DNA of 64,000 bases, from assembly GCA_012295275.1 (NCBI GenBank), contig CM022677.1, positions 23,436,001 to 23,500,000 on the forward strand. Reading direction: 5' to 3'. The translations under genes and the position numbers were made by a program. This DNA comes from Chrysomallon squamiferum. Taxonomy: Eukaryota > Animalia > Mollusca. Positions 9,494 through 63,744 of the stretch are shown piece by piece. The notes under the pieces are model-generated. The model saw only the letters and a list, made by a program, of their open reading frames with translations, searched no databases and was not told the DNA's origin. Every line of letters begins with the position of its first letter. The stretch's first letter is position 1.

Positions 9494-12400
9494 GTAATTT
9501 ATTAACTCTTTTTACAGTTACTATTACATTTCACAATCTACTAAATAAATAATTAAATTCTAAAACATTAAATATAATAAATAAATAAATAAAATATCTA
9601 ATAATAATTATAGATTTATTTTTACCATAATAAATATATAATATTCCAGAAAAAAATCAAAAAGAAAAGAAACAAAAAAAGAGAAGAAAATGTATACAGT
9701 TGCCTCTTTGACACCATAATGAACTTGCTTTTAGAAATACATATATATATATATATATATATATATATATATAATATAAAAATAAAGAAAACAATTATGT
9801 ATCAAAGTCTTTGGACTATTTGACAAACACAGACTTCCCAGTTGAAGACACTGATGTCACAGTGACTGAATCAATAACACTGACTTGAGAATAGAAGCCG
9901 ATGTCACAATCACTGAATTTAAAATATTGTTTAAGTTTTCATTAGTTATTTAAATCTCAAAGCAGCAGCAATAACAACAGGAAGAACTGGAACAATGAAA
10001 GTAATAGTAACACTGTATTTTATGTTATCTTAATACATATTTAAGATAATAATAATTTTAAAATTAATAATTAAATAATATTGACATCTAATCCTTAAGT
10101 GGACATAATATTGCTTCTAGGTTGGTTTTTTGATTATGATAAACATTTATTATTTTAATTATACCACCACTAGTACTAGTAATTACTGTCTTCTAACCAA
10201 TTAGAAATATTTTCTTTGGCTTTATACTTATTTGAATATATAAGTGATTTTTTTATTAGTTGATTGCTCATGGACTGAATGGGTGCTAGAATCAGAAACA
10301 TGTAGTGTTACCTGTGGTAATGGCATTCAGAGAACTATCTACAGAAGAGGATGCTCCAGTCCTGGGTCAGAAGACTGTCAAGGAAATGACACAAAAACAG
10401 TAACCTCTGCATGTGTTTACAGAAACTGTTCAAGTAATTAAATTTGTTCTTATGTTTGCTTCTTCCTCTTTAGTCATATTTTTTTTTTGTTCAGTCAAGA
10501 AAGAGAGGAAAAGAGAGGGAGAGAGAGACAGAAAAAAAAAAACTGTATCAATATATGTATATTTGTACACACACACACACACACACACACATACAAACAC
10601 AGTGTATATCCATTTGGATATTCTACAATTGTATATTTATACAATATATGTCTGTGTATTTTATACTGGCACATTTTATGACTGAACGTTGTAGTTCCTG
10701 GAAGAAGGAGTGTGTGGTTTAACTTTAGAGAAGACTTATGTGATTCAACTTGTGTCAGAGCAAGTATTTGTTACCTCCTCTCTGTGATTATTTTCAGGTG
10801 TAATTTCATTATTCTGTCTGTGATATTTACTGTATATTTACTGTATATTAAAAATGACTAAATCCCACTGCAAACAGAGATTCACAAAATTTAAAACTGT
10901 AGTTAGTGGAGAAGTAATTGGGTAATACATTTTTCTGGATACATGATCATTACTCCAATCTTGTAAGTAGGGATATATATTTTTTATGTGAAGGTGAAAA
11001 CATTCATCCCTAAATTCATTTATCATTGGTAACTCTCTATGGTACTGCTGTAGGTCTATGCAAGTAAGTCCAATGATGGACACCAATGATTATGATGAGA
11101 AAGATTAACTTTTGAAGCACTCAAGCTTGTAATGATCTTAAGTATTTTCACCTTCTCAAGCAATATGATAAACAATGCCTTGATACAGTTATAAAGAGTG
11201 TATGATAAAAGTATGTACTAGCAGTGTTAAACTGGTAGAAAAAGATTAATCATTACTCACGGTAGTTTCAGAATATGCATATTTCAGAGCTTACTTGTGG
11301 AAATTTTCAGTTTCTTTGAAATTGTGCTATAAATTTCATAGTTGTGATCATTACCTTCAGTACCAGTCTATCTGAAGTTCCCAAATGGATAACAAAATAT
11401 GCAAACTCTTTGTGCCTTCATCATGTTAATATTGTCTACTTAAGTACAGTTGGACATAATCTTTCAGAACCAAAAGTGGAACAGTTCAGTGGTTTCCTAT
11501 CATTAAGTTCACAAAACACAACGATTTATAGGACATGAGATCAAATTACTTTTAAATTAAGGAAATGCTATGTCTATTGCACGATCAGAATAAGTTATCT
11601 GATAGTCATAATTCCACAGCGTGAGTAAAACAAAATCTTGTTGAAAACTATCATGATGTCTTTATCCTAACAGCATCTGAAAGCAAGTTATCTGTGTAAC
11701 TTTGAAGTTCTGGCATGCTTGTTATGTGATCAGTGCTAGGTAACATTGATGAATATATACGGCGGTATTTCGACTTACAAGTGTCCGAACTTAGGTGTTT
11801 TCCGAGTTACGAGCAGTCGCCCGGTCGAATTTTTGCTTTGAGTTCAGAGACAAAATATGAGGTAAAAGCGAGCTTCAGATACGCAGCCGCTAGTTGGCAA
11901 AATATGAATCAGTGATTTTCTGCTAGATCCTTTTTCTTATTCTGTGATTCATCATTCTTTATAGCTTAATAGTTGCTATACCTTTCAGTAGTTGCAGATA
12001 CAGAGGTGAGAATACTTATAATTTAATTAAGATATTATGATGTTGTTTGAAGATATCAGTAACAAAAATTATCATAATTAACTACTGTGTTACTTTTAAT
12101 CAATTAGATGGAGGTTGGAGTTCCTGGACCAGAGATGAAAAAACATGTTCAGTGACATGTGGGCCTGGTACACGTATTGTTGTAAAAACAAGGCAGTGTA
12201 ATAACACAGGAGGAAGAGATTGTGAAGGCAGTACAACACAAAATATTGCAGAGTCATGTGAGACAGTTGCATGTCCTAGTAAGAAAGTAAATTTAATAAA
12301 TTTTAAAATTGTGTCTGCATTGAATCCTTTTATTAACAGTACTTAATGTTATGTTTTATTTCAGTAATTACATACATGCAGTCTACTCACTGACTCTATC

Positions 12401-63744: not shown

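What the first reader, a model, noticed from the sequence alone, without database searches (positions are those of the whole stretch)
10260..63744. One-domain-per-exon symmetric phase-1 cassettes allow combinatorial splicing and exon shuffling
Seen: every intact TSR exon and microexon is a multiple of 3 nt with phase-1 ends. Many splice sites are weak (ttaag and gaag acceptors; gtgata, gtaatt and gtattc donors), and dead exons sit inside otherwise intact genes, so skipping must occur if the genes are expressed. Inference: any subset of exons stays in frame, giving a large potential isoform repertoire. Phase-1 symmetry is normal for extracellular modules, so the usage pattern is what needs testing.
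Basis: partly seen in the sequence, partly recalled or inferred. Interest (0 to 1): 0.7.

Follow-up and report, generated by a model that had tools for sequence, protein, structure and literature searches.

The report
Recombining thrombospondin-repeat membrane gene cluster
A row of near-identical animal genes for predicted cell-surface proteins built from thrombospondin repeats, one repeat per exon: the RNA joins seen link each exon to its neighbour, so the variety likely comes from DNA recombination between copies rather than from mix-and-match splicing, and the exon layout itself is ordinary.

Summary
The anatomy is real. Of 45 tabulated cassettes, 43 keep both splice sites and 42 of those 43 are multiples of 3 with phase-1 ends. 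This is the textbook class 1-1 layout of thrombospondin type 1 (TSR) modules. The splicing inference is not supported. RNA contigs laid on gene C show nine junction types, all exon to next exon and none skipping. They include the 'weak' ttaag, gtgata and gtaatt sites. 13 of 28 joints were not displayed, contigs drop rare forms, and genes B, E and F have no RNA laid. Most dead exons lack an AG or GT and are simply intron. DNA shuffling is well supported: gene C is D-like at its 5' end and B-like at its 3' end, across a 20-kb tandem duplication, and gene B holds hybrid duplicated exons. The closest relatives are clustered gastropod 'coadhesin-like' TSR membrane proteins, whose annotated isoforms often lack one or a few whole TSRs. 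Verdict: a new member of a known kind, mostly neighbour-spliced, probably with limited skipping.

The parts
1060..4820 (+). Gene A, 3' part: TSR exons 1060-1251 and 1864-2046, microexons 2811-2828, 3233-3253 and 3839-3856, TM exon 4183-4267, last exon from 4741. Upstream of the finding.
   Evidence: open frame to a stop in the in-script model; no RNA laid
9426..22690 (+). Gene B: signal exon 9426-9493; TSR exons 10260-10433, 12108-12278, 13342-13533, 13968-14153, 14625-14816, 15539-15733, 17685-17873, 18606-18794, 20549-20746; microexon 21699-21716; TM exon 22219-22303 (phase 1 to 2); last exon from 22603. Predicted 643 aa.
   Evidence: B-type letters and a B6-to-B7 junction in RNA contigs laid on gene C
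10695..10763 (+). Remnant of exon 2 in gene B; exons 3 and 4 are deleted. A cryptic GT would give an in-frame 69-nt piece.
   Evidence: use untested
12108..12278 (+). B exon 5: the original AG is lost, and a new AG 3 nt downstream keeps phase 1
   Evidence: use untested
12562..12752 (+). B exon 6, first copy: both splice sites intact, 191 nt, one A short in an A run and otherwise identical to 13342-13533. Either frameshifting or a homopolymer assembly error.
12886..13779 (+). Intragenic exon 5/6 duplication in B. The copies at 12886 and 13651 carry exon-7-type upstream intron fused to exon-5 coding sequence and lack the AG; the 13651 copy is truncated.
13778..34255 (+). First unit of a ~20-kb tandem duplication (3' half of B, intergenic DNA, 5' half of C)
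   Evidence: 17,208 of 20,478 nt align to 34242-53937 at 92.4% mean identity
34242..53937 (+). Second unit of the duplication (3' half of C, intergenic DNA, 5' half of D)
29487..43715 (+). Gene C: signal exon 29487-29554; exons 29771-29944, 30250-30429, 30635-30658 (microexon), 30821-30982, 33534-33716, 33999-34190 (donor lost), 34460-34645, 35170-35361, 37619-37813, 39298-39486, 40400-40588, 41678-41875; microexon 42736-42753; TM exon 43242-43326; last exon from 43628. Predicted 705 aa without exon 6. D-like 5' half, B-like 3' half.
   Evidence: RNA joints
33999..34190 (+). C exon 6: the donor GT is changed to AT. A cryptic in-frame GT lies at 34221; retention of the intron would stop the protein before the TM segment (347 aa).
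   Evidence: its fate in RNA is not visible
49282..54350 (+). Gene D, 5' part: signal exon 49282-49349; exons 49562-49735, 49969-50148, 50351-50374, 50539-50700, 53216-53398, 53682-53873, 54159-54350; no exon 7
   Evidence: two contigs of run X4 match D2-D3-D4 and D5-D6 by their mismatch counts
56376..63744 (+). Further TSR exons E1-E4 (56376, 57025, 57802, 60438) and F1-F3 (61175, 62665, 63538), an internally duplicated unit. No signal or TM exon was recognised between D and these, so they likely continue gene D beyond the window.
   Evidence: no RNA laid
56122..56188 (+). 3' fragment of an exon 6 with AG and GT, 67 nt, not 3n
62381..62559 (+). Dead copy of exon F2 with AG and a GT, 179 nt, containing a stop
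27090..27241 (+). Orphan E3/F3-type TSR fragment between genes B and C; a second, more broken copy lies near 47423

Best explanation
This is a tandem cluster of paralogous genes for predicted single-pass membrane proteins made of thrombospondin type 1 repeats, one repeat per phase-1 exon; the RNA joins seen link each exon to its neighbour, and the variety among copies likely arises from unequal crossing-over and gene conversion in the DNA. Steps: (1) Shown: symmetrical TSR exons and microexons between a signal-like exon and a TM-like exon. (2) Shown for nine junction types in three RNA runs of one study: neighbour-to-neighbour splicing, including at AAG acceptors and gtgata or gtaatt donors. 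(3) Shown: a ~20-kb tandem duplication, with mosaic ancestry of genes B, C and D. (4) Inferred: crossover between two paralogues near intron 6 made gene C a hybrid, a conversion tract homogenised exon 6 between B and D, and crossover between exon starts made the extra exon 5/6 copies in B. (5) Inferred: phase symmetry matters because it lets such gains, losses and dead exons leave the frame open; a dead exon would be passed over constitutively, not by choice. (6) Inferred from relatives: a few minor isoforms lacking one or a few TSRs or a linker probably exist. (7) Inferred: the proteins would act in adhesion or surface recognition; the ligand is untested.
For:: the five GT..AG joints displayed (2-3, 3-4, 4-5, 7-8, 8-9) all join neighbours and are absent from run X3. 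Four more neighbour junctions come from tables 5c, 7 and 8 (1-2, 5-6, 6-7, 9-10; assigned). A 413-nt contig spans exons 2-3-4-5 in X1 and X2, and a 511-nt contig spans 8-9-10 in X1; three contig ends fall where paralogue differences predict (C2 +1, C8 +95, C9 +168), so these graphs keep branches of comparable abundance; differences private to B, C and D are 186/23/23 over the signal-to-exon-5 segments, 5/25/3 in exon 6, and 7/4/61 around exon 8 (Fisher p 7e-34 and 5e-16, treating sites as independent); the 20-kb duplication and the hybrid exons at 12886 and 13651. PMC7502776 (whole text) names thrombospondin type 1 as a class 1-1 module; clustered gastropod relatives with the same signal-TSR-TM plan.
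Against: 13 of 28 joints and 236 of 260 loose ends were not displayed. Contigs collapse minor variants (PMC12424806, passages). Two contig ends are not predicted by the window's paralogues: one just before a cryptic GT in exon C5, and one 29 nt past exon 10, where a second upstream partner of exon 11 would cut. Only 8.9 kb was laid, with RNA from one study, tissue unknown. Relatives have annotated isoforms lacking whole TSRs, numbered up to X17 in one Haliotis rubra gene.
Confidence: 0.7

Rival explanations
1. One reading: the cassettes are skipped combinatorially, giving a large isoform repertoire per gene, tissue or cell.
For: Any subset of the 42 cassettes stays in frame. 15 of 43 acceptors are AAG. 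Annotated isoforms of related gastropod genes lack whole TSRs: 8 of 9 same-gene pairs and 2 of 7 pairs. One contig end fits a second upstream partner for exon 11. Many individually rare skips could be pruned from contigs.
Against: 0 skipping junctions among the nine junction types visible, and long unbroken contigs through exons 3, 4, 9 and 10. The weak-looking sites are used. No docking-site signal stands out: the best intronic window pairs with 9 of 11 upstream regions, against 7-9 in 5 shuffles. The isoform sets seen in G. aegis are small (X1-X5).
Confidence: 0.12
2. Gene C and the 20-kb duplication are an assembly artefact: two divergent haplotypes placed in tandem and joined in intron 6.
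For: The two units are colinear at 92.4% identity. No displayed contig of run X3 spans the junction. Contig depth cannot give copy number.
Against: About 8% divergence with kilobase indels is high for alleles (my judgement). Exon 6 of C is only 83-84% identical to both B6 and D6. A misjoin would need to switch between two different genes. The B/D mosaic at exon 6 and the intragenic duplicates in B remain even if C is false.
Confidence: 0.1
3. The cluster is mostly decaying duplicates under relaxed selection, and the dead exons are early pseudogenisation with no functional repertoire of any kind.
For: pN/pS is 0.74 (B-C), 0.96 (C-D), 0.89 (B-D) and 0.76 (E-F), none different from 1 (Fisher p 0.08-0.89). 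Nine dead or remnant cassettes are present.
Against: B-, C- and D-type sequences all appear in spliced RNA contigs. W4, W7, five Cys and one Gly are invariant in 23 aligned domains. Frames are open from signal to tail in the B and C models.
Confidence: 0.12

Closest known systems
Gastropod 'coadhesin-like' / 'hemicentin-1-like' TSR membrane proteins (e.g. Gigantopelta aegis XP_041355826.1, XP_041356389.1, XP_041356537.1; Littorina saxatilis V1264_006796 and 006798; Pomacea canaliculata)
   Same: Signal, tandem TSRs, short linker, TM segment and short tail in several members. They share the short-loop TSR variant used as query. They are clustered: 11 of 20 looked-up hits lie on one 40.8-Mb G. 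aegis contig (the 20 were picked by me from 67 hits, by rank and size). Annotated isoforms lack single TSRs or linkers.
   Different: Only about 37-53% identity per domain, so orthology is not shown. The names are automatic labels. The B and C models have 9-10 TSRs against 3-8 in the G. aegis membrane forms seen. Their exon structure was not seen.
Class 1-1 mobile modules (Patthy), thrombospondin type 1
   Same: One domain per exon flanked by phase-1 introns, with a phase-1 intron after the signal peptide (PMC7502776 whole text; PMC8001218 passages).
   Different: Here a single module type is repeated and exchanged among near-identical paralogues, not shuffled between unrelated genes.
Sponge aggregation factor (AF) cluster of Amphimedon
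   Same: Clustered paralogues with almost all introns in phase 1 (154 of 155), read as a mark of exon shuffling (PMC5400394, passages).
   Different: Calx-beta, VWA and VWD domains rather than TSRs. AFs are candidate allorecognition factors; no such data exist here.
Drosophila Dscam1 mutually exclusive exon arrays
   Same: Tandem duplicated domain exons in a surface-protein gene.
   Different: Dscam picks one exon per array through RNA pairings (PMC4691838, abstract). Here neighbouring exons are spliced together, and no docking signal stands out.
Hybrid genes from unequal crossing-over (anti-Lepore globin, glycophorin hybrids; recalled, no call)
   Same: A third gene between two paralogues, with the 5' half of the downstream gene and the 3' half of the upstream gene.
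   Different: Here the crossover also changes domain number and order, because each exon is one domain.

Membership tests
TSP1/TSR domain (PF00090) | WxxW motif, CxxTC, RxRxC and six cysteines; Pfam match | tested here: met
   10 of 15 TSR exons scanned hit a TSP1 family at E<=0.1, and 3 pass the PF00090 cut-off; invariant W, C and G columns in 23 domains; the divergent exon C2 is nearest to TSP_1 clusters (a lead only).
Class 1-1 module gene | [quoted passage not shown] | tested here: met
   42 of 43 cassettes with both splice sites; boundaries confirmed by RNA at five displayed joints.
Gastropod coadhesin-like TSR membrane cluster | Signal + tandem TSR + TM + short tail, in a genomic cluster | tested here: met
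   models for B and C (signal and TM judged by eye from hydrophobic stretches); relatives.
Gastropod coadhesin-like TSR membrane cluster | Orthology or synteny with the G. aegis cluster | not testable with these tools
   No genome is held for the window; per-domain identity is about 37-53%.
Coral coadhesin (B3EWZ3) proper | Skeletal matrix protein resembling hemicentin-1; multidomain architecture | not tested
   Only passages of PMC3748352 were seen; the label on the gastropod proteins is automatic.
Dscam-type mutually exclusive array | Adjacent variant exons are never spliced together | tested here: not met
   nine neighbour-to-neighbour junction types.
Dscam-type mutually exclusive array | Docking-site and selector pairings | tested here: inconclusive
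   best count 9 of 11 against 7-9 in 5 shuffles. The best mean energy, -16.5, is slightly beyond the shuffles (-15.3 to -15.9), but its window (36838) lies in an insertion absent from gene B. The 25 longest inverted repeats shown of 582 are low-complexity.
Combinatorial cassette-exon gene | Frequent skipping junctions among intact exons | tested here: inconclusive
   None among those displayed; contigs cannot show absence, and 13 joints were hidden.

The most novel reading that the evidence does not exclude
The cluster is a variable surface-recognition system of molluscs that diversifies on two levels: hybrid genes with new domain orders arise by crossover between paralogues, and each cell adds low-frequency skipping of single TSR exons that bulk contigs prune away, giving individual- and cell-specific receptor sets without Dscam-type exclusion.
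Probability: 0.1. Interest if true: 0.7.

Novelty: new member of a known kind. Interest (0 to 1): 0.3.

Why it matters
As flagged (symmetrical exons allow splicing combinations) the finding is ordinary: phase 1-1 TSR exons are textbook, and the RNA seen is neighbour-spliced. What is worth keeping is the cluster. It shows domain-level recombination at a recent stage: a likely hybrid gene, a converted exon, duplicated hybrid exons, and pN/pS near 1 with cysteines fixed. It belongs to a gastropod family known here only from automatic annotation. Five searches (listings, plus passages of two papers) turned up no paper describing such a TSR membrane-gene cluster; that library lacks most subscription papers. 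If the family proves polymorphic and tied to immunity, symbiosis or gamete recognition, it would be a candidate variable receptor locus.

Tried and rejected
No whole genome is held. A homologue search with exon C2 alone found no candidates. A second RNA lay, on gene B, returned no data, so the fate of B's dead exons in RNA stays open. Contig depth was not used to estimate inclusion or copy number. The raised depth in intron 5 (about 17-19 in X1) looked like retention, but B-type and D-type letters are both present and the window has four copies of this intron, so summed background explains it. Exon-like pieces at 33414-33430 (17 nt) and 36066-36106 were rejected as regular exons: the displayed joints 4-5 and 8-9 pass over them. 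Steric exclusion was rejected: all gene C introns are 162 nt or longer (the ~50-nt threshold is recalled). The inverted-repeat and docking scans gave nothing beyond low-complexity or near-shuffle values (only 5 of 12 planned shuffles finished). Positive selection was not shown. Run X4 held almost none of the sampled words (0.03); I used only its two laid contigs that match gene D by mismatch count. Four of 13 protein pairs were dropped as different genes or alleles (51-91% identity). Earlier scan notes: none found. No fold or complex was predicted, as neither bears on the splicing claim.

Full report
The window is animal DNA (about 30% GC, microsatellite-rich). All TSR-like motifs lie on the + strand. 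Reading the sequence and self-alignment resolve the flagged range into paralogous genes: the 3' end of gene A upstream of the range, complete genes B (9426-22690) and C (29487-43715), and gene D (from 49282). D has no TM exon in the window and probably runs on through exons E1-F3. In-script models give open frames of 643 aa for B and 705 aa for C without exon 6: signal-like start, 9-10 TSRs, short linker, hydrophobic segment and a tail of about 29 residues.

Observation. I tabulated 45 internal cassettes by hand. 43 keep AG and GT, and 42 of these are multiples of 3, stop-free and phase 1 at both ends. Two further remnants with both sites (67 nt and 179 nt) were outside that table and are not multiples of 3. 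Pfam gives a TSP1-family hit for 10 of 15 TSR exons scanned, 3 above the PF00090 cut-off; two Trp, five Cys and one Gly are invariant in 23 aligned domains. The symmetry is real but inherited from one ancestral module. Patthy lists thrombospondin type 1 among class 1-1 modules (PMC7502776, whole text) and describes class 1-1 predominance in extracellular proteins (PMC8001218, passages).

Dead exons. They do not imply regulated skipping. The copies at 12886 and 13651 lack the AG, C6 lacks the GT, and the orphans near 27090 and 47423 lie between genes. Three keep both sites and break the frame: B6 (one A short in an A run, otherwise identical to its twin, so possibly an assembly error), the 67-nt fragment and the dead F2 copy. 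Passing over these would be constitutive. None of the three was covered by an RNA lay.

RNA test. Three RNA runs of one study and one unlabelled run that behaves as DNA, all of coded organism A, were found and laid as contigs on 30110-39050. Of 28 joints, 15 were displayed. Five are GT..AG, match my boundaries, occur only in RNA runs and join neighbours (2-3, 3-4, 4-5, 7-8, 8-9). The other ten are not GT..AG and all occur in X3, so they read as DNA indels between copies. Four more neighbour junctions come from other tables. 9-10: the loose end is the exact start of exon 10. 6-7: a B6 tail joined to exon 7 in X2. 5-6: an X4 contig whose 3 and 15 mismatches equal D5 and D6. 1-2: the loose end is one letter from the C1 and D1 tails, judged by eye; the exact string is not in the window. 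That makes nine junction types, none skipping. A 413-nt contig spans exons 2-5 in two runs, and a 511-nt contig spans 8-10 in one.

How far this goes. Logan contigs collapse minor variants (PMC12424806, passages), 13 joints were hidden, the tissue is unknown, and genes B, E and F have no RNA laid. A k=31 graph of the window's paralogues predicts three observed contig ends exactly, so branches of similar abundance do survive in these data, though many other predicted breaks were not seen. Frequent skipping of exons 3, 4, 9 or 10 should have broken the long contigs. Two ends are unexplained. One of them is where a second partner upstream of exon 11 would cut, but unknown paralogues exist (an X2 contig has 9 differences from C9, while B9 has 3) and explain it equally well.

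No Dscam-like machinery stands out. Neighbours are spliced together, introns are 162 nt or longer, and the 25 longest of 582 inverted repeats are low-complexity. A docking scan of 629 windows gave a best count of 9 of 11 against 7-9 in five shuffles. Its best mean energy was slightly beyond the shuffles, but in a C-only insertion.

DNA shuffling is the strong signal. 13778-34255 is repeated at 34242-53937 (17,208 of 20,478 nt aligned, 92.4%). From the signal exon to exon 5, C and D agree and B is the outlier (private differences B 186, C 23, D 23). In exon 6, C is the outlier (5, 25, 3), and around exon 8, D is (7, 4, 61). From exon 7 on, B and C exons are 94-99% identical. I infer that C is a hybrid made by unequal crossing-over near intron 6, and that exon 6 was converted between B and D. 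In B, two extra exon-5 copies carry exon-7-type upstream intron, which points to crossover at the shared exon start. B has lost exons 2-4 and D lacks exon 7. pN/pS between paralogues is 0.74-0.96 and not different from 1: relaxed or diversifying, not resolved. A haplotype misjoin remains possible for gene C.

Relatives. A profile of 23 domains finds 619 longer proteins; the best of the 120 listed are largely mollusc 'SCO-spondin-like' and 'coadhesin-like' entries, and 17 of the 120 have a TM-like stretch. A profile of the six short-loop domains finds 67. Of 20 that I looked up, 12 are Gigantopelta aegis (11 on one 40.8-Mb contig); the rest are Littorina, Patella, Pomacea, Haliotis and one bivalve. 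Several have the same signal-TSR-TM plan. The window is therefore probably from a gastropod (inference). Annotated isoforms of these genes differ by whole modules. In G. aegis, 2 of 7 pairs lack exactly one TSR, 2 a short linker, 1 a 187-aa block and 2 have other ends. In Pomacea and Haliotis, 8 of 9 same-gene pairs lack 1-5 TSRs. These are database predictions. They make limited skipping likely here and also make it unremarkable.

Comparison and verdict. The locus works like other class 1-1 repeat genes in tandem clusters, such as the sponge AF cluster (PMC5400394, passages), and fails the Dscam test. I found no paper on this gastropod cluster in five searches. The two papers checked mention coadhesin-like genes only in an expression table or sentence (passages; supplements not seen). 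Best reading (0.7): mostly constitutive splicing with a few minor isoforms, and diversity generated by recombination among copies. Interest 0.3.

Noticed in passing
window 4741-4820, 22603-22690, 43628-43715: The short cytoplasmic tails of genes A, B and C are divergent but all end with an E-N-Y motif three residues from the C-terminus, a possible tyrosine signalling or sorting motif.
   Followed up: no
window 12105-12110: Loss of the exon-5 acceptor in gene B is matched by a new AG exactly one codon downstream, keeping phase 1.
   Followed up: partly
window 34121 (runs X1 and X2): Loose ends carry a TSR-like continuation that is not in the window, so further transcribed paralogues exist elsewhere.
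   Followed up: partly
window 33580: The 413-nt contig ends at the same base in X1 and X2, just before a cryptic GT inside exon C5 that would be out of phase; this is not predicted by the window's paralogues.
   Followed up: partly
window 9426-9493 vs 29487-29554: The signal exons of B and of C/D are only 72% identical, more diverged than the neighbouring introns (81-88%); C and D are identical there.
   Followed up: no
window 3699-3741 and 36066-36106: Short AG..GT pieces ending in a Cys-Xaa codon pair before the donor, like decayed TSR exon tails. The one in gene C is passed over by the 8-9 joint.
   Followed up: partly
window 32500-33100 and 54897-55020: An interspersed repeat in intron 4 of C and D, and again downstream of D8, with high summed depth in run X3.
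   Followed up: no
window 25600-25930 and 45980-46290: An intergenic stretch that reads by eye like a decayed THAP-type zinc-finger transposon fragment (motif recalled, not tested), present in both duplication units.
   Followed up: no
window 37619-37813, 41678-41875 and paralogues in B: Exons 9 and 12 encode basic, proline-rich TSRs with a longer loop, unlike the acidic exons 10 and 11; B12 and C12 differ by 9 non-synonymous and 2 synonymous changes.
   Followed up: no
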